Shown: in pieces, positions 25,058 to 54,666 of the stretch
Numbering within the stretch: position 1 is the first letter of the stretch
Layout of the letters: each line of letters opens with the position of its first letter
Assembly: GCA_040414495.1 (NCBI GenBank)
Contig: JBEDUI010000296.1
Coordinates: forward strand, 4,847-68,846
Direction of reading: 5' to 3'
Source: Mycobacteriales bacterium
GTDB taxonomy: Bacteria > Actinomycetota > Actinomycetes > Mycobacteriales > QHCD01
DNA length: 64,000 nucleotides
The notes under the pieces: generated by a model
Database searches by the model: none
What the model was told of the DNA's origin: nothing
Seen by the model: only the letters and a program-made list of their open reading frames with translations
Made by a program: the position numbers and the translations under genes

Positions 25058-27178
25058 TCAGCTGCCTGTGGTGTTACCCGTCTGGGCGCGAACCTTGTCA
25101 AGGCTGGCGTGTGCCGCTGCGACGACGCGGTCGACGGTGAAGCCGAACTGTTCGTAGAGCGTCGCGTAGGCCGCGCTGGCGCCGTAGTGCTCGAGGCTGA
25201 CGGTCTCGCCGGCCTCGCCGACGAAGTCGCGCCAGCCCTGGGCGATGGCGGCCTCGACGCTGACCCGGGCCTTGACGTTCGGCGGCAGAACCTGCTGCCG
25301 GTACGCGTCGTCCTGCTCGTTGAACCACTCGACGCACGGCATGGACACCACACTTGTGGCAACCCCATCGGCCTCCAGAGCCTTCCGCGCCTGAACTGCG
25401 AGTTGGACCTCAGAGCCCGTGGCGATGATGATCACCGCCGGCGTGCCGCCGGTCGCCGGTGCCAGCACGTAACCGCCCTTGGCGACGCCGTCGGCCGAGG
25501 CGTACTCGGAGCGGTCGAACGTCGGCAGATTCTGCCGGGACAGGGCCAATCCGGCCGGACGGTCGGTGTGCTCCAGGACGGTCCGCCAGGCGACCGCGGT
25601 CTCGTTGGCGTCGGCCGGGCGCACCACGTCCAGGCCCGGGATCGCCCGCAGCGCGGCCAGATGCTCCACCGGCTGGTGGGTCGGGCCGTCCTCGCCGAGA
25701 CCGATCGAGTCGTGCGTCCAGACATAGGTCACCGGCAGCTTCATCAGGGCCGCGAGCCGAACCGCCGGGCGCATGTAATCGGAGAAGACCAGGAACGTGC
25801 CACCGTACGGCCGGGTCCCGCCGTGCAGCGCGATTCCGTTGAGGATCGAGGCCATCGCGTGCTCGCGGATGCCGAAGTGCAGCGTGCGTCCGTACGGGCC
25901 GCCGGGGAACTCCTTGGTCTGGCGCTCGGGCGGCACGAACGACGGTTCGCCCTTCATCGTCGTGTTGTTCGACCCGGCCAGGTCGGCCGATCCGCCCCAG
26001 ATCTCGGGGAACGGGATGAGGCTCTTGAGCACCGCCTCGGAGGCTTTACGAGTGGCGATGCCCTTCTCGTCGGCCGGGAAGGTCGGGAGGCTCTCGGCCC
26101 AACCGGCGGGCAGCCGCCGCTCACGCAGCCGGTCGTGGAGCTCCTTGGCCGCCGGGTTGGCCTGGGCCCAGGCGTCGTACCGCTGCTGCCAGTCGGCGTG
26201 CGCCTGCCGGCCGCGGTCGAGTACCTCGCGGGCGCGGGCCAGCACCTTGGGGTCAACGTCGAACTGCTGCTCCGGATCGAAACCGAGCACCGTCTTGGTA
26301 GCGGCGACCTCATCGGCGCCGAGGGCCGAGCCGTGCGAGGCGCCGGTGTTCTGAGCGTTCGGTGCTGGCCAGGCGATGATCGTGCGCAGCTTGATGATCG
26401 AGGGGCGGTTGGTCTCCGCGCGTGCCGTTTCGTAGGCGTGCTCGAGCGCGGCGACGTTCTCCACGTACGAGCCGTCGTCGCCGACCCAGTCAACGGCCTG
26501 GGTATGCCAGCCGTACGCCTCGTACCGCTTGAGCACATCCTCGGAGAACGCGACGTTCGTGTCGTCCTCGATCGAGATCCGGTTGTCGTCGTAGAGCAGG
26601 ATCAGATTGCCCAGCTGCTGGTGGCCGGCGAGCGAGCTTGCCTCGCTGGAAATGCCTTCTTCGAGGTCGCCGTCGGAGGCGATCACGTAGATGTGGTGGT
26701 CGAACGGGCTCGTCCCGGCCGGCGCGTCCGGGTCAAGCAGGCCGCGCTCACGGCGCGCCGCCATCGCCATGCCAACCGCGTTGGCGATGCCCTGACCGAG
26801 TGGGCCAGTGGTGGTCTCGACACCGGCGGTGTGCCCATGCTCGGGATGGCCCGGGGTCAATGAACCCCAGGTGCGCAGCGCCTTGATGTCCTCAAGCTGC
26901 AGGCCATAGCCAGAGAGAAAGAGCTGTAGATACAAGGTCAGGCTCGAGTGCCCGGCGGACAACACGAAACGGTCCCGACCGGTCCAGTCGGGATCGCTGG
27001 GATCGTGTCGCATGATCTGCTGGTAGAGCAGGTATGCCGCTGGTGCCAGGCTCATCGCTGTGCCAGGGTGCCCGTTGCCGGTTTTCTGCACGGCATCCAT
27101 GGCGAGGACCCGGATTGTGTCGACAGCCTTCCGGTCCTCGTCGGTCCAGCTGGCGGGATATATGTCGGTATTCGTCAC
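25058..27178 (-). CDS. tkt: transketolase
   Basis: VTNTDIYPASWTDEDRKAVDTIRVLAMDAVQKTGNGHPGTAMSLAP.. GTG 27178 with gaggag RBS 9 nt upstream. The 1147-aa track ORF is an artefactual 5' extension. Confidence 0.95.
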   Translation of the reverse strand: MTNTDIYPASWTDEDRKAVDTIRVLAMDAVQKTGNGHPGTAMSLAPAAYLLYQQIMRHDPSDPDWTGRDRFVLSAGHSSLTLYLQLFLSGYGLQLEDIKALRTWGSLTPGHPEHGHTAGVETTTGPLGQGIANAVGMAMAARRERGLLDPDAPAGTSPFDHHIYVIASDGDLEEGISSEASSLAGHQQLGNLILLYDDNRISIEDDTNVAFSEDVLKRYEAYGWHTQAVDWVGDDGSYVENVAALEHAYETARAETNRPSIIKLRTIIAWPAPNAQNTGASHGSALGADEVAATKTVLGFDPEQQFDVDPKVLARAREVLDRGRQAHADWQQRYDAWAQANPAAKELHDRLRERRLPAGWAESLPTFPADEKGIATRKASEAVLKSLIPFPEIWGGSADLAGSNNTTMKGEPSFVPPERQTKEFPGGPYGRTLHFGIREHAMASILNGIALHGGTRPYGGTFLVFSDYMRPAVRLAALMKLPVTYVWTHDSIGLGEDGPTHQPVEHLAALRAIPGLDVVRPADANETAVAWRTVLEHTDRPAGLALSRQNLPTFDRSEYASADGVAKGGYVLAPATGGTPAVIIIATGSEVQLAVQARKALEADGVATSVVSMPCVEWFNEQDDAYRQQVLPPNVKARVSVEAAIAQGWRDFVGEAGETVSLEHYGASAAYATLYEQFGFTVDRVVAAAHASLDKVRAQTGNTTGS

Positions 27179-27502
27179 CCGTGCGCGCTCCTCGCAGGAC
27201 AGGCTCGGCCGCTGCGCCCGAACCAGTCGCAGGACCGTGCGTGATAACGGCTCCCACCCTAGCCCCGGCGCTAACGGCACAGCAGGAAGCCTGTGGACGA
27301 GCCATATGGGCGTGTGGATGTTCGCTGTTCGTACAACTGGCGTTGGCCCGTCTGCTGACCCGAGGCAACCGGCGAGCACCCCGGGCCAGGATGCACGCAA
27401 GCCCGCGTCTACAGTTGGATCCGCGCGGCGGGTGTGTCGCGCTGCCCGGATCATGAGTGACAGCGGCTGGGGTGCTCGTTTCGTGTTGTCTTCGGTTAGC
27501 GG

Positions 27503-28420
27503 TTGTCGGCGGACGTGACTGCCTACACCCCGGTGGCACCGCGCAGTGTCGGCTCGGTGCTGCGGGCCTATCTCGCGCTGACCAAGCCCCGCATCATCGA
27601 GCTGCTGCTGGTCACGACGGTGCCGACCATGCTGTTGGCGGCTCGAGGCCTGCCGCGGTGGACGGTCGTGGTGGCGACCCTGATCGGCGGCATGTTGGCC
27701 GCTGGCAGTGCGAACGCGCTCAACTGCTACGTCGACCGGGACATCGACCAGGTCATGCACCGCACCCAGCGGCGTCCGCTGGCCAAGCAATCGGTCTCGC
27801 CGCGTAATGCGCTGATCTTCGGCATCGCACTGGGCGTGCTCGCCACGGCCTGGCTCGCGGTCACCACGAATGTGCTCTCGGCCGGCCTGGCCGACGCGAC
27901 CATTCTGTTCTACGTCTTTGTCTATTCGATGGGCCTCAAACGCCGCACCTCGCAGAACGTCGTCTGGGGCGGCGCGGCCGGATGTATGCCGGCACTGATC
28001 GGCTGGTCGACCGTCACCGGCACGGTGTCGTGGGCCGCCGCGACGTTGTTCCTGGTCATCTTTTTCTGGACTCCGCCGCACACCTGGGCGCTGGGCATGC
28101 GCTTCCGTGAGGACTACGCGCGGGCCGGGGTACCGATGCTGCCCGCGGTCGCGCCGGCCACCGTGGTTGCTAACCGCATCGTCTTCTACACCTGGCTGAT
28201 GATCGCCTCGTCGCTGGTGCTGTGGCCGTTGGCTACCGGCTGGATTTACGGCGCGGCGGCCATCGCGCTGGGTGTGGTTTTCCTGGGGTACGCGTACCGC
28301 CTGCGGTCGCAGGTTCGCGGCGGCGGCAAGGTCAAGCCGCTGGCGTTGTTCAAGTGGTCGAATACGTACCTGTCGTTGCTGTTTCTCGCTGTCGCGGTCG
28401 ACGCGCTCGTGCTGCACTGA
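27503..28420 (+). CDS. ctaB: protoheme IX farnesyltransferase (heme O synthase)
   Basis: ..YLALTKPRIIELLLVTT..NCYVDRDID..MHRT..RPL..; polytopic membrane protein. Start is TTG 27503 or GTG 27515. Confidence 0.9.
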   Translation: MSADVTAYTPVAPRSVGSVLRAYLALTKPRIIELLLVTTVPTMLLAARGLPRWTVVVATLIGGMLAAGSANALNCYVDRDIDQVMHRTQRRPLAKQSVSPRNALIFGIALGVLATAWLAVTTNVLSAGLADATILFYVFVYSMGLKRRTSQNVVWGGAAGCMPALIGWSTVTGTVSWAAATLFLVIFFWTPPHTWALGMRFREDYARAGVPMLPAVAPATVVANRIVFYTWLMIASSLVLWPLATGWIYGAAAIALGVVFLGYAYRLRSQVRGGGKVKPLALFKWSNTYLSLLFLAVAVDALVLH

Positions 28421-28577
28421 TAGCTGCCTTTTACCCCTTCTTTCCGCATCGCTCCGTTGGAGGAGTAGCGCGAAGATCAAGCCTCCCCTAAACGAGAGCA
28501 CCGCTCTTGCTTCTGCGGCAATGGCCCACTAATGTCTGTCGTAACAGAGAGCAGTGCTCACGGAACGGGAGAATCCA

Positions 28578-47669: not shown

Positions 47670-48002
47670 ATGAGTGAGTTCCAGCGAGCGTGCGCCGTGG
47701 CCGATGTCCCGGTCGATGGCGCGATGCACGTCGATATCGACGGCACCCCGATCGCGGTGGTCAATTCCGACGGGGAGTTCTACGCCATCTACGACGTGTG
47801 CTCGCACGCGGAGGTACCGCTGTCCGAGGGCGATGTCGACGGCGGCACGATCGAGTGCTGGCTGCACGGCTCGTGCTTCGACCTGGCCACGGGTAAACCG
47901 ACCGGTCTACCGGCCACCAGGCCGGTCCCGGTCTTCCCAGTGAAGATCGACGGCGATGCGCTCTACATCAGCCTGAACAATGGAATTTCCGAGGAGAATT
48001 GA
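47670..48002 (+). CDS. Rieske [2Fe-2S] ferredoxin-like protein (non-heme iron oxygenase ferredoxin subunit type)
   Basis: 110 aa with CSH-N17-CWLHG Rieske ligand motifs (..VCSHAEVPLSEG..IECWLHGSCF..). Confidence 0.85.
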   Translation: MSEFQRACAVADVPVDGAMHVDIDGTPIAVVNSDGEFYAIYDVCSHAEVPLSEGDVDGGTIECWLHGSCFDLATGKPTGLPATRPVPVFPVKIDGDALYISLNNGISEEN

Positions 48003-50245: not shown

Positions 50246-50722
50246 ATGAAGCTCGAGTCGATGTACCAGGAGATCATCCTGGACCACTACAAGAACCCGC
50301 ACGGCCGCGGCCTGCGGGAGCCGTACGACGCCGAAGTGCACCACGTCAACCCGACCTGCGGGGACGAGGTGACGCTCAGGCTGAAGCTGGACGACGGCGT
50401 GGTCAAGGACGTCTCGTACGAGGGTCAGGGTTGCTCGATCAGCCAGGCCTCCGAGTCGGTGTTGACCGACCTGGTCGTCGGCAAGCCGTTGGACGACGCG
50501 CTGCAGATCGAGCAGGCATTCCTGGAGCTGATGCAGTCGAAGGGAGGAGAGCCGGACAGCCACACCAGCGATCTGCTCGAGGACGCGGTGGCGTTCGTCG
50601 GGGTCTCGAAGTACCCGGCCCGGATCAAGTGCGCGTTGCTCGGCTGGATGGCGTTCAAAGACGCGGCTGGTCAAGCGACCGGTGCCGGCGCTACCGAGGA
50701 AATCATGGGAGGCAGCCGATGA
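50246..50722 (+). CDS. sufU: SUF-system Fe-S scaffold SufU (NifU-like)
   Basis: ..LDHYKNPHGRG..NPTCGDEVTL..GQGCSISQAS..; C-terminal ..KCALLGW.. Confidence 0.9.
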   Translation: MKLESMYQEIILDHYKNPHGRGLREPYDAEVHHVNPTCGDEVTLRLKLDDGVVKDVSYEGQGCSISQASESVLTDLVVGKPLDDALQIEQAFLELMQSKGGEPDSHTSDLLEDAVAFVGVSKYPARIKCALLGWMAFKDAAGQATGAGATEEIMGGSR

Positions 50723-51081
50723 CCGAACAGTCGACAACCGGCGAGCAGGCGGTCTCGAAGGCCGCGATCGACGACATCGAAGAGGCCATGCGCGACGTGG
50801 TCGACCCCGAACTGGGGATCAACGTCGTCGACCTCGGTCTGGTGTACGGCATCACGGTCGACGACGACAACATCGCCACGCTGGACATGACGCTCACCTC
50901 GGCGGCGTGCCCGCTCACCGACGTGATCGAGGACCAGGCCAGTCAGGCGCTGACCGGCGGTCCGGGTGAGCCGCTGGTACGTGAGGTCCGGATCAACTGG
51001 GTCTGGATGCCGCCGTGGGGCCCGGACAAGATCACCGACGACGGCCGCGAGCAGCTACGCGCGCTCGGGTTCAACGTCTGA
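50719..51081 (+). CDS. sufT: metal-sulfur cluster assembly factor (DUF59/SufT)
   Basis: ..VVDPELGINVVDLGLVYG..LDMTLTSAACPLTD.. ATG 50719 overlaps the sufU stop. Confidence 0.85.
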   Translation: MTEQSTTGEQAVSKAAIDDIEEAMRDVVDPELGINVVDLGLVYGITVDDDNIATLDMTLTSAACPLTDVIEDQASQALTGGPGEPLVREVRINWVWMPPWGPDKITDDGREQLRALGFNV

Positions 51082-51111
51082 GGTGCCGCCTCTGATCGCT
51101 GGCCGCCGCTG

Positions 51112-51792
51112 ATGCCGGCCAGCAGACCCGCGGCCGGCGGTGGTCGCTGGGTTGAGGTCGGCCCGGAACGTATCGAGCGGTGGTTGGCCGGCTTTGACGA
51201 GCGGCACCAGGTGGTACGGACCGAGCCGGCGCAGTACGGCCTGCGCGTGGTCGGTGCGGATGGCTCGGTGGCCGAGTGTCACGTGCCGTTTCCGCCGTTG
51301 ACTGGTCGCATTGAAGGTGCCGGTCTGGTGACGGCCGGCTTGACCGAGCACCTGAGTACGAAGCGCCGGGTCGGTGTGCTGTTGGTACGGCTGGGTGGAT
51401 ACGCGGTGGGCGTCTTCGACGGGCCGTCACTCGCCGTGTCCAAAGTGGACAGTCGGTTGGTGCACGGGCGGGCGTCGGCCGGCGGTTGGTCGCAGAAGCG
51501 GTTCGCCCGGCGCCGTGAGGGACAGGTCCGGCAGGCAGGCGAAGCGGCCGCCGACGTGGCGGTCCGGATCTTGATCGGCACGGCCGGCGAGTCAGGCCGG
51601 TTAGATGCGGTGGTGACCGGCGGCGAGCGCAAAGCAGTCGGCGCGGTGCTGGCCGATGGCAGGCTCGCGGCGCTGCGGCCCCTGGTCGTCGAGCGGTTTC
51701 TCACCGTCCCCGATCCGAAGAAGGCGATTCTCGAGGCGTCGCCGGAGGCGTTCAACGCCGTGCATATCCGGATAATCGATGCGCCCGAATAA
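51112..51792 (+). CDS. acVLRF1-family (Vms1/ANKZF1-like) putative peptidyl-tRNA hydrolase
   Basis: 226 aa. ..VGVLLVRLGGYAVGVFDG..SKVDSRLVHGRASAGGWSQKRFARRREGQ.. resembles the VLRF1 catalytic loop (GG.SQ..F.RRRE). The call rests on motif memory. Confidence 0.7.
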   Translation: MPASRPAAGGGRWVEVGPERIERWLAGFDERHQVVRTEPAQYGLRVVGADGSVAECHVPFPPLTGRIEGAGLVTAGLTEHLSTKRRVGVLLVRLGGYAVGVFDGPSLAVSKVDSRLVHGRASAGGWSQKRFARRREGQVRQAGEAAADVAVRILIGTAGESGRLDAVVTGGERKAVGAVLADGRLAALRPLVVERFLTVPDPKKAILEASPEAFNAVHIRIIDAPE

Positions 51793-51878
51793 TCCGTTGT
51801 GTGGTGCGGAAACCGGGTCGAAATCATCCGTTGGCGACCCGTACACTGTTCGGCGTGACTCCACTGATGAGCTGATTT

Positions 51879-51899
51879 GGCCACGTTTCATCCGTGGCC
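51879..51899 (+). promoter_or_regulatory. 7-bp-stem hairpin in the ABC-F leader, 3 nt after a 6-codon uORF
   Basis: ggccacg-tttcatc-cgtggcc. The uORF GTG ACT CCA CTG ATG AGC TGA is at 51855-51875. Confidence 0.3.
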
Positions 51900-51930
51900 T
51901 GCCCCGACTCACCCGACAGCGAGCCCATCA

Positions 51931-53535
51931 GTGATTACAGCAACGCAGCTGGAACTGCGCGCTGGCGCACGTATCCTGCTCTCCGACGTCACCCTCCGCG
52001 TACAACCTGGCGACCGCATCGGCCTTGTCGGCCGCAACGGCGCCGGCAAAACCACCACCTTGCGCGCCCTCGCCGGCGAATCCCTGCCGTACGCCGGCAG
52101 CATCGACCGCCGCGGCGATCTCGGCTATCTGCCGCAGGATCCGCGTACCGGCGATCTCGATGTCACCGCCCGGGACCGGGTGCTCTCCGCCCGCGGGCTG
52201 GACGAGCTGCTGCACAACATGGAGAAGACCCAGGTGGCGATGGCCGGCGCGGCCACCGATGCCGCCCGGGACAAGGCGGTCCGGCGCTACGGCAACCTCG
52301 AAGATTCGTTCGCTGCGCTGGGCGGGTACGCCGCCGAGAGCGAGGCGGCCCGGATCTGCGCCAACCTCGGCCTGCCCGACCGGGTGCTGGCCCAGCCGCT
52401 GCGCACCCTCTCCGGCGGTCAACGCCGCCGCATCGAACTGGCCCGGATCCTGTTCAGCGACGCCGAAACGTTGCTCCTGGACGAGCCGACCAACCACCTG
52501 GACGCTGACTCGATCGTCTGGCTGCGTGACTACTTGAAGAGCCACGACGGCGGGTTGATCGTGATCAGCCACGACGTCGAGTTGCTCGACCACGTGGTCA
52601 ACAAGGTCTGGCACCTGGACGCCAACCGGGCCGAGGTCGACATCTACAACCTCGGCTGGAAGGCGTACCTGCAGCAACGCGAGACCGACGAGCGTCGCCG
52701 ACACCGGGAACGCAAGAACGCCGAGAAGAAGGCGTCGGCGTTGTTGAGTCAGGCCGACAAGATGCGGGCCAAGGCGACGAAGGCGGTCGCCGCGCAGAAC
52801 ATGGCCCGCCGCGCCGAACGGCTGCTGGCCGGGGTGAGCGAGGTACGGCAGGCGGACAAGGTCGCCCGGGTGCGGTTCCCGACCCCGGCGCCGTGCGGCC
52901 GGACCCCGTTGACCGCCGAGGGCTTGTCCAAGTCGTACGGGTCGCTGGAGATCTTCACCGACGTCGACCTGGCCATCGACCGGGGGACGCGGGTGGTCGT
53001 GCTGGGCCTCAACGGTGCCGGCAAGACGACGTTGCTGCGCATCCTGGCCGGCATGGAGACCTCGGACACCGGGGCGGTGAAGCCAGGTCATGGGCTGCAG
53101 CTGGGGTACTACGCCCAAGAACACGAGACGGTCGACCACGATCGTACGGTCCTGGAGAACATGCGCGCCGCCTCGCCCTCCAGCATGACCGACACCGAGC
53201 TACGCCGGATTCTCGGTGCGTTCCTGTTCTCCGGAGACGCGGTCGACCAGCGGGCCGGCACGCTCTCCGGTGGCGAGAAGACCCGACTGGCGCTGGCCGG
53301 CTTGGTGTGTTCGGCGGCGAACGTACTGCTGCTGGATGAGCCGACCAACAACCTCGATCCGGCCTCGCGCGAACAGGTTCTGGACGCGCTGCGTACGTTC
53401 GCCGGCGCCATCGTGCTCGTCACTCACGACGAGGGCGCGGTCGAGGCGTTGCAGCCAGACCGGGTGATCCTGCTGCCGGATGGCGTTGAGGACACGTGGA
53501 GCGCTGACTTCGCCGACCTGGTCGCATTGGCCTGA
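51931..53535 (+). CDS. ABC-F family ATPase (two NBDs, no TM domain; Rv1473-like)
   Basis: VITATQLELRAGARILL..GLVGRNGAGKTT.., a basic inter-domain linker (..RETDERRRHRERKNAEKKA..), then a second NBD ..LGLNGAGKTT..LSGGEKTRLAL..LLLDEPTNNLD. GTG 51931. Confidence 0.9.
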   Translation: MITATQLELRAGARILLSDVTLRVQPGDRIGLVGRNGAGKTTTLRALAGESLPYAGSIDRRGDLGYLPQDPRTGDLDVTARDRVLSARGLDELLHNMEKTQVAMAGAATDAARDKAVRRYGNLEDSFAALGGYAAESEAARICANLGLPDRVLAQPLRTLSGGQRRRIELARILFSDAETLLLDEPTNHLDADSIVWLRDYLKSHDGGLIVISHDVELLDHVVNKVWHLDANRAEVDIYNLGWKAYLQQRETDERRRHRERKNAEKKASALLSQADKMRAKATKAVAAQNMARRAERLLAGVSEVRQADKVARVRFPTPAPCGRTPLTAEGLSKSYGSLEIFTDVDLAIDRGTRVVVLGLNGAGKTTLLRILAGMETSDTGAVKPGHGLQLGYYAQEHETVDHDRTVLENMRAASPSSMTDTELRRILGAFLFSGDAVDQRAGTLSGGEKTRLALAGLVCSAANVLLLDEPTNNLDPASREQVLDALRTFAGAIVLVTHDEGAVEALQPDRVILLPDGVEDTWSADFADLVALA

Positions 53536-53701
53536 CCGTTCGGCCCAGCCGGCGCTGCCTGGGACGGGGGCCTGGCCAATGTGGCATTCGGGCGGCGTGG
53601 AAATCCGCCTGATCTCCTAGCCGTGGCCGCCCTGGTGAGTGATCATGGGTTGACTGGACCCGTTGTCCCCCAGGGCGAGCCAGGCAGAGGAGGCAATCGA
53701 C

Positions 53702-53914
53702 GTGGCCGATCTGAAGAAGGGCGCCCGAATCACCGGCGCGACGCGTGCGAAGCTGTCCGTAGACCTGCGCAAGAAGTACGACTCGGGGAAGAGCATCCGG
53801 GCTCTTGCCGAGGAGTCCGGCCGATCGTACGGCTTTATCCACCGCATCCTTTCTGAGTCCGGGGCACCGCTGCGCGGTCGTGGCGGTCCGACCCGGCGCA
53901 AAAAGACCGACTAG
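53702..53914 (+). CDS. small helix-turn-helix domain protein
   Basis: GTG 53702 with gaggagg RBS. VADLKKGARITGATRAKLSVDLRKKYDSGKSIRALAEESGRSYGFIHRILSESG.. Sits after the ABC-F gene, the Rv1473A position. Confidence 0.7.
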   Translation: MADLKKGARITGATRAKLSVDLRKKYDSGKSIRALAEESGRSYGFIHRILSESGAPLRGRGGPTRRKKTD

Positions 53915-53916
53915 CG

Positions 53917-54666
53917 CTACAACCCCGGGGTGACGCCTCCGTCCACAGCCAGCATGGTGCCGGTGATGTACGAGGCCGCGGGGGAGAGCACGAATGCGGC
54001 GACCCGCCCGAACTCGGCGGGTTCTCCGTAGCGACCGAGCGGAATGTTTCGCAGTTTGGCACTACGGGTGGCGTCGGACTCGGCAGCCGAGACCTCCCGT
54101 AGCCGATCGGTAGCGATTGATCCGGGCAGCAGCCCATTCACGCGGATACCGCGCGGCCCAAATTCGGTCGCCATTGATTTCGCCACCATCGCCAGGCCCG
54201 GCCGGATGCCGTTGGAGATGGCCAGTTCCGGCCGCGCTGCGCGCACCGTCGAGGACAGTACGAAGGCGAGTGCGCCACCGGTCGGCAGGCTTTCGGCGAC
54301 TTGACGGGCAAGGCGCAGCGCGCCGAGAAATACGGTGTCGAATGCCTGTCGCCATTGCTCTTCGGTGATGTCGGCCAGCGTGCCAGCCGGTGGTCCGCCG
54401 ACGCTGATCAGCGCCCCATCGAGCCGGCCGAATTCGTCCTGCGCCGATTCGATGAGGCGTCCCGGCGTGGCCGGGTCGGCCAGATCTGCCACCACGCCGC
54501 GGGCCGAGCTGCCCAGCGCATCAACGGTCGCCGCGACCGATGCCGGGTTGGGCGAGGAGACGACCACGTGCGCGCCGTCGGTCACCAGGGCCTCGGCCCC
54601 GGCCCGGCCAAGCCCACGCGTACCGCCGGTGACGAGATAGGTGCGGCCTGCTAGTCCAAGATCCAC
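53917..54666 (-). CDS. SDR family oxidoreductase
   Basis: ..YLVTGGTRGLGRAGAEAL.. (TGxxxGxG) and a Rossmann pattern. 249 aa. Confidence 0.85.
   Translation of the reverse strand: MDLGLAGRTYLVTGGTRGLGRAGAEALVTDGAHVVVSSPNPASVAATVDALGSSARGVVADLADPATPGRLIESAQDEFGRLDGALISVGGPPAGTLADITEEQWRQAFDTVFLGALRLARQVAESLPTGGALAFVLSSTVRAARPELAISNGIRPGLAMVAKSMATEFGPRGIRVNGLLPGSIATDRLREVSAAESDATRSAKLRNIPLGRYGEPAEFGRVAAFVLSPAASYITGTMLAVDGGVTPGL

What the first reader, a model, noticed from the sequence alone, without database searches (positions are those of the whole stretch)
51112..53535. acVLRF1 release-factor homologue paired with an ABC-F ATPase directly after the SUF operon
The 226-aa protein carries a loop (..RLVHGRASAGGWSQKRFARRREGQ..) resembling the catalytic GG.SQ / RRxxE region of Vms1/ANKZF1-type VLRF1 peptidyl-tRNA hydrolases. 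That is the family computationally named acVLRF1 in actinobacteria. To my knowledge it has not been characterised biochemically.

It is followed on the same strand, 138 bp downstream, by an ABC-F protein with two NBDs and a basic linker (Rv1473-like). That class binds the ribosomal E site and modulates the peptidyl-transferase centre. The juxtaposition suggests a two-component stalled-ribosome rescue or antibiotic-response module.
Basis: partly seen in the sequence, partly recalled or inferred. Interest (0 to 1): 0.55.

Follow-up and report, generated by a model that had tools for sequence, protein, structure and literature searches.

The report
Release-factor-like gene beside ABC-F gene
A small, never-tested relative of the protein-release factor eRF1/Vms1 does sit between the iron-sulfur (SUF) operon and a ribosome-protecting ABC-F ATPase gene, but the two genes look like long-standing neighbours with separate controls, not a proven two-part rescue machine.

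Summary
Bases 51112-51792 encode a 226-aa acVLRF1-family protein. It passes the Pfam and NCBIfam cut-offs, carries a GGWSQ loop followed by an RFARRR helix, and its AlphaFold model matches eRF1/aRF1 best.

Bases 51931-53535 encode a two-NBD ABC-F of the ribosomal-protection type, positionally like M. tuberculosis Rv1473/OcrA. The gap between the two genes is 138 bp.

The adjacency is far above chance. The ABC-F orthologue lies downstream on the same strand in 41/68 genome loci and 34/50 metagenome loci that have enough flank.

It nevertheless behaves like inherited synteny (SUF, acVLRF1, ABC-F, HTH_58):
- It always has the same order and orientation.
- It is often interrupted by unrelated genes, some on the opposite strand.
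- It is broken on either side in different lineages.
- It is absent in Propionibacteriaceae.

The 138-bp gap holds the ABC-F gene's own leader. A -10-like TACACT is followed by a leaderless 6-codon uORF whose bases pair with the ABC-F start codon. The same design is conserved upstream of the ABC-F whatever gene precedes it. acVLRF1 itself starts only 30 bp after SufT, so it is probably the last gene of the SUF transcript.

The family calls are supported. The "two-component module" reading is not. A Vms1-Arb1-like cooperation remains possible but is untested.

The parts
50719..51081 (+). SufT (DUF59/FeS_assembly_P), last canonical gene of the SUF operon. Its ATG overlaps the SufU stop (ATGA).
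   Evidence: Pfam PF01883 E 2e-20; sequence and translation.
51112..51792 (+). acVLRF1-family protein, 226 aa, starting 30 bp after the SufT stop. It has an N-terminal RPAAGGGRW motif (residues 5-13), a small N-terminal domain (about residues 12-82) and an eRF1-M-like RNase-H-fold domain (about 86-222).
   Evidence: PF18859 E 4e-42 and NF041024 250 bits against cut-off 125. AlphaFold model with pLDDT 90.2. Foldseek top hits are eRF1/aRF1 at E 9e-9; Vms1-60S (6r84_R) scores E 2e-4. The family profile matches aRF1 3agk at E 7e-9.
51463..51525 (+). Putative catalytic loop and basic helix, HGRASAGGWSQKRFARRREGQ (residues 118-138). The GGWSQ motif is residues 124-128.
   Evidence: Direct reading. 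The columns are invariant or nearly invariant in alignment A1. The loop has lower pLDDT (67-81), as expected for a flexible loop of GGQ type.
51842..51847 (+). -10-like hexamer TACACT, 7 nt upstream of the uORF start codon. This is the geometry of a leaderless transcript.
   Evidence: A TAnnnT hexamer, a 6-7 nt spacer and a mini-ORF occur upstream of the ABC-F in 35/42 genome loci and 32/34 metagenome loci, against 0.11% of random segments.
51855..51875 (+). Six-codon upstream ORF, GTG ACT CCA CTG ATG AGC TGA (MTPLMS*), the proposed leader peptide of the ABC-F gene.
   Evidence: uORFs of 3-6 codons are conserved at the same position in relatives (for example MHTPD, MLRCEG, MLLTQD, MQPLLS).
51862..51933 (+). 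Predicted leader RNA structure. uORF bases 51862-51869 pair with 51926-51933, which include the ABC-F GTG start codon. An internal 7-bp hairpin lies at 51879-51899.
   Evidence: RNAfold MFE -36.7 kcal/mol, z -2.74 against 200 shuffles. The duplex between the uORF and the start region is -17.4 kcal/mol against -10.3 for shuffled uORFs.
51931..53535 (+). ABC-F ATPase, 534 aa from GTG 51931: NBD1, a basic PtIM/ARD linker and NBD2. It is of the ribosomal-protection type and is the positional counterpart of Rv1473/OcrA.
   Evidence: Two ABC_tran domains plus ABC_tran_Xtn. NF000355 at 386.8 bits against cut-off 380. The closest solved relatives are YheS, PoxtA, YbiT and EttA. Orthologues are 67-81% identical in 41 genome loci.
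53663..53914 (+). Small HTH_58 protein that almost always follows this ABC-F.
   Evidence: PF19575 E 1.5e-30. It lies downstream on the same strand in 40/41 genome loci.

Best explanation
The two genes are independent translation-related genes that have been neighbours since an early actinomycete ancestor.

(1) acVLRF1 (51112-51792) is a genuine member of the acVLRF1 family. It is a stripped-down eRF1-like protein with no stop-codon-reading domain and no C domain. It keeps the GG-x-S-Q loop and the arginine-rich helix that in eRF1 and Vms1 reach the peptidyl-transferase centre. The inferred function is codon-independent release of the nascent chain from peptidyl-tRNA on stalled 70S ribosomes or obstructed 50S subunits. 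Release would occur either by ester hydrolysis or, as reported for Vms1/ANKZF1, by cutting the tRNA 3' end. In this genome the gene is most likely transcribed as the last gene of the SUF operon, because the gap after SufT is only 30 bp.

(2) The ABC-F (51931-53535) is an OcrA/Rv1473-type ribosome-protection factor. It has its own promoter-like -10 element, a leaderless 6-codon uORF, and a leader RNA in which the uORF pairs with the ABC-F start codon. The inferred control is translational attenuation: a ribosome arrested on the uORF by a drug that targets the peptidyl-transferase centre frees the start site.

(3) The adjacency reflects conserved gene order (SUF, acVLRF1, ABC-F, HTH_58), not an operon or an obligate pair.

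Shown here: family membership, fold, neighbourhood statistics and conservation of the leader architecture. Inferred: the hydrolase activity, ribosome binding, co-transcription with SUF and the drug response.
For: Membership and fold.

Neighbourhood in genomes: ABC-F downstream on the same strand in 41/68 loci with at least 7 kb of flank. Of these, 18 are direct (gap 25-211 bp) and 23 are separated by 0.5-3.5 kb of unrelated genes. The inserted genes include a LysE exporter and, on the opposite strand, a Zn-metallopeptidase.

Neighbourhood in metagenomes: 34/50 loci, 28 of them direct. Seventeen loci have the compact SufT-acVLRF1-ABC-F layout seen in the window.

Linkage classes, as SufT present | ABC-F present: 26 both, 12 ABC-F only, 8 SufT only and 15 neither in genomes; 21, 5, 3 and 10 in metagenomes. 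The order and orientation are always the same. No other ABC-F lies near acVLRF1 in loci that lack the orthologue.

ABC-F followed by HTH_58 is much tighter, at 40/41.

Independent ABC-F leader.

SufT-acVLRF1 gaps of -16 to 63 bp in many loci.

Propionibacteriaceae context lacks both SUF and ABC-F in 5/5 loci.

The window is a core-genome block (tkt, tal, zwf, ctaA, ABC-2, SUF, ABC-F, HTH, aconitase).

Literature: Rv1473/OcrA and MAB_2736c are ribosome-protecting ABC-Fs (PMC9159947, PMC13041422). uORF attenuation is the usual control of resistance-type ABC-F genes (PMC12421871).
Against: - The adjacency is frequent and spans several actinomycete families. The pair stays together in 17 loci where SUF is not within reach, so selection for proximity cannot be excluded.
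- Yeast Vms1 works with the ABC-F Arb1 on the 60S subunit (PDB 6r84; PMC7026593). A VLRF1 plus ABC-F partnership therefore has a precedent.
- Read-through from acVLRF1 into the ABC-F is not excluded. No terminator-like site was found between them.
- No transcript, activity or binding data exist for any acVLRF1.
- The residue aligned to the catalytic Gln of eRF1 is Trp in this protein, so hydrolase activity is not assured.
- Orthology of the ABC-F to Rv1473 rests on synteny, the family model and terminal peptides deduced from published primers. It was not checked by a direct alignment.
Confidence: 0.6

Rival explanations
1. The pair is a functional two-component rescue module, the actinobacterial counterpart of Vms1-Arb1. 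The ABC-F binds the E site and positions the P-site peptidyl-tRNA so that acVLRF1 in the A site can release the chain. Neighbourhood conservation would reflect this cooperation.
For: Adjacency in 41/68 genome loci and 34/50 metagenome loci, and retained without SUF in 17 loci. Vms1 bound to the 60S subunit together with the ABC-F Arb1 appears among the structural matches (6r84_R). Arb1 is proposed to position peptidyl-tRNA for Vms1 (PMC7026593). Depletion of the mycobacterial orthologue MAB_2736c causes a growth defect without drug, which hints at a housekeeping role (PMC13041422).
Against: The ABC-F has its own conserved promoter-like element and uORF leader regardless of what lies upstream. 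Opposite-strand and unrelated genes are inserted between the two genes in 23/41 genome loci. There is a single fixed order and orientation. Linkage is lost in Kribbella, many Nonomuraea, Cryptosporangium and Propionibacteriaceae. The ABC-F is closer to YheS, PoxtA and EttA than to Arb1. Its tight partner is HTH_58.
Confidence: 0.15
2. acVLRF1 is functionally tied to the SUF operon and to iron or redox stress, not to the ABC-F. It would be co-induced by SufR with Fe-S assembly genes, to clear ribosomes stalled by oxidative or iron stress.
For: The gap after SufT is 30 bp in the window. Gaps are -16 to 63 bp in about 20 other loci, too short for a separate promoter. In Propionibacteriaceae, acVLRF1 lies within one or two genes of a DtxR/IdeR-type iron-dependent repressor in 5/5 loci. 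A thioredoxin gene is also nearby in three of those five.
Against: SUF linkage is lost in Streptosporangiales, Amycolatopsis and many MAGs. A LysE exporter or other genes are inserted between SufT and acVLRF1 in Micromonosporaceae. There is no mechanistic precedent and no expression data.
Confidence: 0.15
3. acVLRF1 is not a hydrolase. It would be a catalytically silent A-site binder with a hibernation or regulatory role, like the bacterial eRF1 homologue Balon, because the residue equivalent to the catalytic Gln of eRF1 is Trp.
For: The profile alignment places the Gln of the eRF1 GGQ motif on the W of GGWSQ. Some family members have GGSSS, with no Gln at either position (9/120 and 6/149). 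Balon-ribosome structures are among the fold matches (8v9l, 8v9j, 8v9k).
Against: The Gln two residues further on (S-Q) is conserved in about 90% of members, and GGQ variants also occur. The describing paper reads GGxSQ as a catalytic motif of Vms1 type with a longer loop (PMC6514570). eRF1 matches are much stronger than Balon matches. The protein lacks the N and C domains that Balon retains.
Confidence: 0.1

Closest known systems
acVLRF-1 family (Pfam PF18859, NCBIfam NF041024; Burroughs and Aravind 2019, PMC6514570)
   Same: Full-length HMM match well above the cut-offs. It has the GGxSQ loop, the Arg-rich helix, no stop-codon-binding domain, and a short distinctive N-terminal region. It is from an actinobacterium.
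   Different: Nothing separates it from the family. The nearest relative is only 72% identical. The paper describes bacterial VLRF-1 proteins as standalone and reports no SUF or ABC-F neighbourhood.
Yeast Vms1 / human ANKZF1 (eVLRF-1) acting with the ABC-F Arb1 on 60S subunits (PDB 6r84)
   Same: Same clade of eRF1-M-like domain with a Gly-x-small-Gln type loop. A VLRF1-type protein is found together with an ABC-F.
   Different: acVLRF1 lacks the zinc finger, ankyrin, VIM and other Vms1 domains. Fold similarity to Vms1 (E 2e-4) is weaker than to eRF1 (E 9e-9). The neighbouring ABC-F is YheS/PoxtA-like and not Arb1-like. No physical or regulatory coupling is shown.
eRF1/aRF1 middle (M) domain
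   Same: Best structural and profile matches. The aligned stretch is GRxxxGG-x-SQ-RF-RR, against GKHKMGGQSQRRYER in aRF1.
   Different: No N (codon-reading) domain and no C (eRF3/ABCE1-binding) domain. Trp replaces the canonical catalytic Gln position.
OcrA (Rv1473) of M. tuberculosis and MAB_2736c of M. abscessus, ARE-type ABC-F proteins
   Same: Two NBDs with a basic linker and no membrane domain. It is followed by a small HTH gene and lies between SUF and aconitase in a core block. The N-terminal (MITAT..L) and C-terminal (..L.ELA/..LVALA) peptides are similar to those deduced from published MAB_2736c primers.
   Different: Orthology was not checked by direct alignment. Resistance function is untested here. 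The leaderless-uORF leader described here was not found described for Rv1473 in the papers that mention both terms (the texts were not read in full).
uORF-mediated attenuation of resistance ABC-F genes (vmlR, msrD, vga(A), lmrC, are5sc, tiaA; PMC12421871)
   Same: A very short uORF in the 5' leader whose occupancy by a stalled ribosome would remodel the downstream RNA.
   Different: Here the uORF appears to be leaderless, and it pairs directly with the SD/start codon of the ABC-F. That implies translational control, not a terminator/antiterminator switch. It rests on prediction only.

Membership tests
acVLRF1 (PF18859 / NF041024) | Score above the curated family thresholds over the full length | tested here: met
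   PF18859 at 143.9 bits against cut-off 27.1. NF041024 at 250.1 bits against cut-off 125, covering residues 12-221 of 226.
acVLRF1 (PF18859 / NF041024) | GGxSQ loop followed by a conserved Arg-rich helix | tested here: met
   G124 G125 W126 S127 Q128 followed by K-R-F-A-R-R-R. These columns are invariant or nearly invariant in A1. GGWSQ is the majority form, in 110/149 representatives of 50%-identity clusters.
acVLRF1 (PF18859 / NF041024) | eRF1-M-like RNase-H-fold domain, without the stop-codon-binding N domain or the C domain | tested here: met
   The AlphaFold model has pLDDT 90.2. Top Foldseek hits are eRF1/aRF1 at probability 1.0, with about 130-140 aligned columns on isolated M domains (2hst, 8hku, 4crm). 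The profile aligns only to aRF1 residues 80-240. Total length is 226 aa.
acVLRF1 (PF18859 / NF041024) | Peptidyl-tRNA hydrolase (or tRNA-cleaving) activity on ribosomes | not testable with these tools
   No experimental paper was found. The NCBIfam name is a prediction.
ABC-F, ribosomal-protection type (NF000355; OcrA/Rv1473-like) | Two ABC NBDs in one soluble polypeptide, joined by the ABC-F linker (PF12848) | tested here: met
   ABC_tran matches in two stretches at E 3.8e-52. ABC_tran_Xtn at E 8.4e-8, residues 249-318 of the 552-aa ORF. The domains fill the 534 aa.
ABC-F, ribosomal-protection type (NF000355; OcrA/Rv1473-like) | Score above the NCBIfam equivalog cut-off | tested here: met
   386.8 bits against cut-off 380, a narrow pass. 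All named ARE subfamilies (Msr, Vga, Lsa, Sal, OptrA, producer type) fall far below their cut-offs.
ABC-F, ribosomal-protection type (NF000355; OcrA/Rv1473-like) | Orthology to Rv1473/OcrA | tested here: inconclusive
   No Rv1473 sequence was available. Support comes from the conserved ABC-F-HTH_58 pair and from the block tkt..SUF..ABC-F..HTH..aconitase, which matches my recollection of Rv1445c-Rv1475c. The terminal peptides deduced from MAB_2736c primers also agree.
ABC-F, ribosomal-protection type (NF000355; OcrA/Rv1473-like) | Confers resistance to 50S-targeting drugs or binds the E site | not testable with these tools
   Known for OcrA and MAB_2736c only (PMC9159947, PMC13041422).
Vms1-Arb1-like two-component rescue module | Co-transcription or shared regulation of the two genes | tested here: not met
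   The ABC-F has its own -10-like element and leaderless uORF leader in 35/42 and 32/34 loci, including loci where an opposite-strand gene separates the pair. This is sequence-based only, with no transcript data.
Vms1-Arb1-like two-component rescue module | Adjacency conserved beyond what shared ancestry explains (independent assemblies, varied order, distant phyla) | tested here: not met
   A single order and orientation in all 75 positive loci. Linkage is lost in several lineages. It is absent in 5/5 Propionibacteriaceae loci and in the one short contig labelled Dormibacteraeota.
Vms1-Arb1-like two-component rescue module | Both proteins bound to the same stalled ribosomal particle | not testable with these tools
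   Needs biochemistry or cryo-EM.
uORF-controlled ARE ABC-F leader | Conserved short uORF in the 5' leader, with RNA pairing that links the uORF to the downstream start or a terminator | tested here: met
   uORF at 51855-51875. Its pairing with 51926-33 gives z -2.74. The uORF::SD duplex has z below -2 in 11/36 genome loci and 26/32 metagenome loci. It is weak in Micromonosporaceae.
uORF-controlled ARE ABC-F leader | Induction by ribosome-targeting antibiotics | not testable with these tools
   Requires reporter or toeprinting assays.

The most novel reading that the evidence does not exclude
acVLRF1 and the OcrA-type ABC-F cooperate on the same stalled ribosome, as Vms1 and Arb1 do in yeast. 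This would give actinomycetes an archaeo-eukaryotic-type release step for obstructed ribosomes or 50S subunits. It would also explain why depleting the ABC-F slows growth even without drugs. The conserved neighbourhood would then be a relic of an ancient VLRF1-ABC-F partnership older than eukaryotic RQC.
Probability: 0.13. Interest if true: 0.8.

Novelty: new member of a known kind. Interest (0 to 1): 0.42.

Why it matters
acVLRF1 is a widespread actinobacterial protein: more than 6,000 sequences scored, and 1,324 clusters at 50% identity. Its function has never been tested.

How bacteria release nascent chains from obstructed large subunits is still debated. If acVLRF1 is a codon-independent release factor, it would be a bacterial rescue activity of archaeo-eukaryotic type. 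That makes it relevant to drug-tolerant actinomycetes and to the evolution of RQC.

This analysis gives concrete constructs and predictions:
- Q128 and W126 mutants of acVLRF1.
- The uORF at 51855-51875 as a drug-sensing leader.
- SUF-coupled expression of acVLRF1.

It also warns against reading the ABC-F adjacency as an operon. The conserved leaderless-uORF leader of OcrA-type ABC-F genes is a useful by-product for those who study intrinsic linezolid, phenicol and macrolide resistance in mycobacteria and their relatives.

Tried and rejected
- **Rfam.** No family matched at gathering score in the whole window. In 50900-52100 only a chance-level hit appeared (P10 sRNA, E 0.66).
- **Consensus scans.** The sigma-70 and intrinsic-terminator scans of 50900-54000 found no promoter and only one terminator-like site, inside the ABC-F gene. 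The scan requires a TTGACA-like -35 and so cannot see actinobacterial promoters that have only a -10.
- **tRNA and tmRNA.** No genes in the window.
- **PADLOC.** acVLRF1 and HTH_58 match no defence family. The ABC-F hits are generic P-loop similarities. A defence-system reading was rejected.
- **RNAalifold** on 14 compact leaders. The sequences are too similar, and the register of the uORF-SD pairing shifts between clades, so column-wise covariation was uninformative (2 compensatory pairs). I relied on per-locus duplex energies against shuffles instead.
- **Gene caller.** My first two versions of the GC-frame gene caller mis-called antisense ORFs. The third version still misses a few genes (for example the SDR at 53917-54666). 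Neighbourhood counts therefore rest on tblastn with the window's proteins and not on the gene calls.
- **Supplements** of the 2019 family paper are not held. I could not obtain its species list or check whether Mycobacterium or Streptomyces carry acVLRF1.
- **Database caps.** A search for non-actinobacterial members reached only Propionibacteriaceae and one short contig labelled Dormibacteraeota. No Chloroflexi locus was examined.


Full report
**1. Observation**

ORF 51112-51792 (+) encodes 226 aa that include ..RLVHGRASAGGWSQKRFARRREGQ... The longest downstream ORF opens at TTG 51877. The start shared with all orthologues is GTG 51931 (VITATQLELR), which gives a 534-aa protein and the stated 138-bp gap.

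The SUF operon lies upstream: SufR, SufB, SufD, a Rieske protein, SufC, SufS, SufU and SufT. The SufT ATG (50719) overlaps the SufU stop. SufT ends at 51081, 30 bp before the acVLRF1 ATG.

**2. The 226-aa protein**

It matches Pfam acVLRF1 (PF18859, E 4e-42) and NCBIfam NF041024 (250 bits, cut-off 125) over nearly its whole length.

An alignment of 20 relatives shows three conserved blocks:
- an N-terminal RPAAGGGRW motif;
- the block HGR..AGG(W/Q)SQ.RF.RRR..Q;
- a C-terminal PDP motif.

AlphaFold2 on that alignment gives a confident model (pLDDT 90.2, pTM 0.83). It has a small N-terminal alpha/beta domain, then three strands, a less confident loop that carries GGWSQ, and a 34-residue helix.

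Foldseek against the PDB returns eRF1/aRF1 first (E 9e-9, probability 1.0). Lower hits are Pelota/Dom34, the bacterial eRF1 homologue Balon on M. smegmatis ribosomes, and yeast Vms1 on the 60S subunit with Arb1 (6r84_R, E 2e-4). A sequence profile of the family finds aRF1 at E 7e-9.

The release-factor fold is therefore confirmed.

One detail deserves attention. The profile alignment places the catalytic Gln of the eRF1 GGQ motif on the Trp of GGWSQ. The Gln that is conserved in the family lies two residues later. Motif counts are:
- Among 120 close homologues: GGWSQ 62, GGQSQ 37, GGSSQ 4, GGQSA 4, GGQSS 2 and GGSSS 9.
- Among 149 representatives of 50%-identity clusters: GGWSQ 110.

The paper that defined the family reads GGxSQ as a catalytic motif of Vms1 type on a longer loop (PMC6514570). 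That paper is the only one found that treats the family, and it is purely computational. The hydrolase activity therefore remains an inference.

**3. The ABC-F**

It has two ABC_tran domains and the ABC-F linker. It passes, narrowly, the NCBIfam model for ribosomal-protection-like ABC-F proteins (386.8 bits against 380). It fails all the named resistance subfamilies and EttA. Its closest solved relatives are YheS, PoxtA, YbiT and EttA, and Arb1 is more distant.

The window as a whole is a core chromosomal block. It runs transketolase, transaldolase, G6PD, CtaA, ABC-2 transporter, SUF, acVLRF1, ABC-F, HTH_58, then several other genes, and ends with aconitase on the minus strand. From my own knowledge of the M. 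tuberculosis map (Rv1445c-Rv1475c), this is the position of Rv1473. Rv1473 is now called OcrA and is an ABC-F that mediates intrinsic resistance to linezolid and chloramphenicol (PMC9159947). Its M. abscessus orthologue MAB_2736c also affects macrolide susceptibility and drug-free growth (PMC13041422).

I could not align the sequences directly. Orthology is therefore likely but not proven.

**4. Whether the adjacency is real**

A scan of one genome per GTDB species returned 80 loci. They come from Cryptosporangium, Streptosporangiaceae, Thermomonosporaceae, Micromonosporaceae, Amycolatopsis, Pseudofrankia, Kribbella, Actinopolymorpha, Trebonia and many MAGs. I mapped neighbours by tblastn with the window's proteins.

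| Measure | Genome loci | Metagenome loci |
|---|---|---|
| ABC-F orthologue downstream, same strand | 41 (of 68 with at least 7 kb flank) | 34 (of 50 decisive) |
| Directly adjacent | 18 (gap 25-211 bp) | 28 (gap 19-283 bp) |
| Separated by other genes | 23 (0.5-3.5 kb) | 6 |
| SufT upstream, same strand | 36 | 26 |
| SufT directly upstream | 6-7 (gap up to 115 bp or overlapping) | 20 (gap up to 202 bp) |
| Compact SufT-acVLRF1-ABC-F layout as in the window | 0 | 17 |

The ABC-F orthologues are 67-81% identical to the window's protein. The metagenome figures come from an independent scan.

For a specified gene in a genome of 6-9 Mb, chance would put it within 3.5 kb downstream in well under 0.1% of cases. 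The association is therefore real.

**5. Module or inherited gene order**

Several results point to inherited order.

(a) In all 75 positive loci the order and orientation are identical. I found no independently assembled variant.

(b) The genes that interrupt the pair are unrelated to translation. They include a neutral Zn-metallopeptidase on the opposite strand in Micromonosporaceae. Between SufT and acVLRF1 there is a LysE-type exporter. In Streptosporangiales an EAL-like gene lies divergently upstream.

(c) Breaks occur on both sides of acVLRF1 at similar rates. The table gives locus counts:

| Class | Genomes | Metagenomes |
|---|---|---|
| SufT and ABC-F both present | 26 | 21 |
| ABC-F only | 12 | 5 |
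| SufT only | 8 | 3 |
| Neither | 15 | 10 |

Kribbella and Actinopolymorpha keep SUF-acVLRF1 without the ABC-F. Some Nonomuraea keep hisEG..acVLRF1 with the ABC-F block, and others lack it.

(d) No other ABC-F paralogue lies near acVLRF1 where the orthologue is missing.

(e) The ABC-F's truly tight partner is the small HTH_58 gene, present in 40/41 loci.

(f) In the Propionibacteriaceae subfamily, 5/5 loci place acVLRF1 within one or two genes of a DtxR/IdeR-type iron-dependent repressor. A thioredoxin gene is also nearby in three of the five. Neither SUF nor an ABC-F is present.

(g) A short contig labelled Dormibacteraeota shows neither neighbour.

**6. Regulation**

The 138-bp gap is not empty. 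A -10-like TACACT (51842-51847) lies 7 nt before a GTG that opens a six-codon ORF (51855-51875, MTPLMS*). This is the geometry of a leaderless transcript.

The predicted leader fold has z -2.74. It pairs uORF bases 51862-51869 with 51926-51933, which contain the ABC-F start codon, around an inner 7-bp hairpin.

The same design is a TAnnnT hexamer, a 6-7 nt spacer and a 3-6 codon ORF, placed 83-148 nt before the ABC-F start. Its frequency is:
- 35/42 genome loci and 32/34 metagenome loci;
- 0.11% of random segments, and 2% of all gene upstream regions (a set that includes the ABC-F genes themselves).

It is present whether acVLRF1 or an opposite-strand gene lies upstream.

The uORF is complementary to the ABC-F Shine-Dalgarno/start region well beyond shuffled controls. 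The duplex z is below -2 in 11/36 genome loci and 26/32 metagenome loci. The complementarity is weak in Micromonosporaceae.

Short uORFs that sense drug-stalled ribosomes are the established control of resistance-type ABC-F genes (PMC12421871). I therefore infer that the ABC-F is an independently transcribed gene under attenuator control.

By contrast, acVLRF1 follows SufT by 30 bp here, and by -16 to 63 bp in about twenty other loci. This suggests that it rides on the SUF transcript.

All of this is sequence-based. No transcript data were available, and read-through from acVLRF1 into the ABC-F is not excluded.

**7. Mechanism and comparison**

The best-supported reading is that acVLRF1 is a codon-independent release-factor-like enzyme for stalled ribosomes or obstructed 50S subunits. 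The family, fold and motif are shown. The activity is inferred. The ABC-F is a separately controlled OcrA-type factor that protects or rescues ribosomes.

Yeast Vms1 acts on the 60S subunit with the ABC-F Arb1 in the E site (6r84; PMC7026593; PMC8012679). The data here fit common ancestry of gene order better than a dedicated module. I give the Vms1-Arb1-like partnership about 13-15%.

Alternative links of acVLRF1 to iron or redox stress through SUF and IdeR-like neighbours, or a non-catalytic role of Balon type, remain open at similar low probabilities.

**8. Verdict**

Both proteins are members of already named families, so I class this as a new member of a known kind.

It has moderate interest, for two reasons. 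The acVLRF1 family is entirely uncharacterised. The analysis also yields specific, testable constructs and a conserved ABC-F leader.

Noticed in passing
window 51842-51933 (also L003, L012, L018, L027, L064, L075, L124, L142 and others, upstream of the ABC-F): A conserved leaderless mini-ORF (3-6 codons) lies 6-7 nt after a TAnnnT hexamer. Its bases are complementary to the SD/start codon of the OcrA-type ABC-F gene. It is probably a drug-sensing translational attenuator. I did not find it described for Rv1473-type genes in the papers that mention both terms.
   Followed up: yes
window 51082-51111 (SufT-acVLRF1 junction); L066, L071, L028, L140, L157 and others: acVLRF1 starts 30 bp after SufT here, and -16 to 63 bp after it in about 20 other loci. 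In many actinomycetes it therefore looks like the terminal gene of the SUF (Fe-S assembly) operon.
   Followed up: partly
L081, L082, L084, L085, L086 (Propionibacteriaceae loci): In this subfamily acVLRF1 lies within one or two genes of a DtxR/IdeR-type iron-dependent repressor in 5/5 loci. A thioredoxin gene is also nearby in three of them. There is no SUF or ABC-F. This is a second iron/redox-flavoured neighbourhood, and it remains unexplained.
   Followed up: partly
window 51481-51495 (residues 124-128, GGWSQ): In the profile alignment, the position equivalent to the catalytic Gln of eRF1 is Trp. The conserved Gln lies two residues later. Family variants include GGQSQ, GGQSA and GGSSS, the last with no Gln at all. 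Which residue is catalytic, if any, is open.
   Followed up: partly
window 51124-51150 (residues 5-13, RPAAGGGRW): This N-terminal motif is nearly invariant in the window's subfamily (98/120 close homologues). It is absent from most of the more distant cluster representatives, including the Propionibacteriaceae-type query. The first seven residues of the model have pLDDT below 50. Its function is unknown; it might be a ribosome-inserting tail.
   Followed up: no
window 53663-53914 and the corresponding genes in L002-L080: A small HTH_58 protein follows the ABC-F on the same strand in 40/41 genome loci. This is a much tighter pair than acVLRF1-ABC-F. In many loci an enoyl-CoA hydratase and a fused ABC exporter come next, but not in the window.
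   Followed up: partly
window 20724-63593: The window is a core actinobacterial synteny block: zwf, tal, tkt, ctaA, ABC-2 transporter, SUF with an inserted Rieske gene at 47670-48002, the ABC-F and aconitase. From memory it resembles M. tuberculosis Rv1445c-Rv1475c. The organism is an uncultured high-GC actinomycete, and its acVLRF1 is at most 72% identical to anything in the databases.
   Followed up: partly
window 25058-28501 (-): The longest ORF that contains the transketolase domains is 1147 aa, but the Pfam domains start only at residue 456. The start is probably over-extended, or an unrecognised upstream gene is fused in my ORF call.
   Followed up: no
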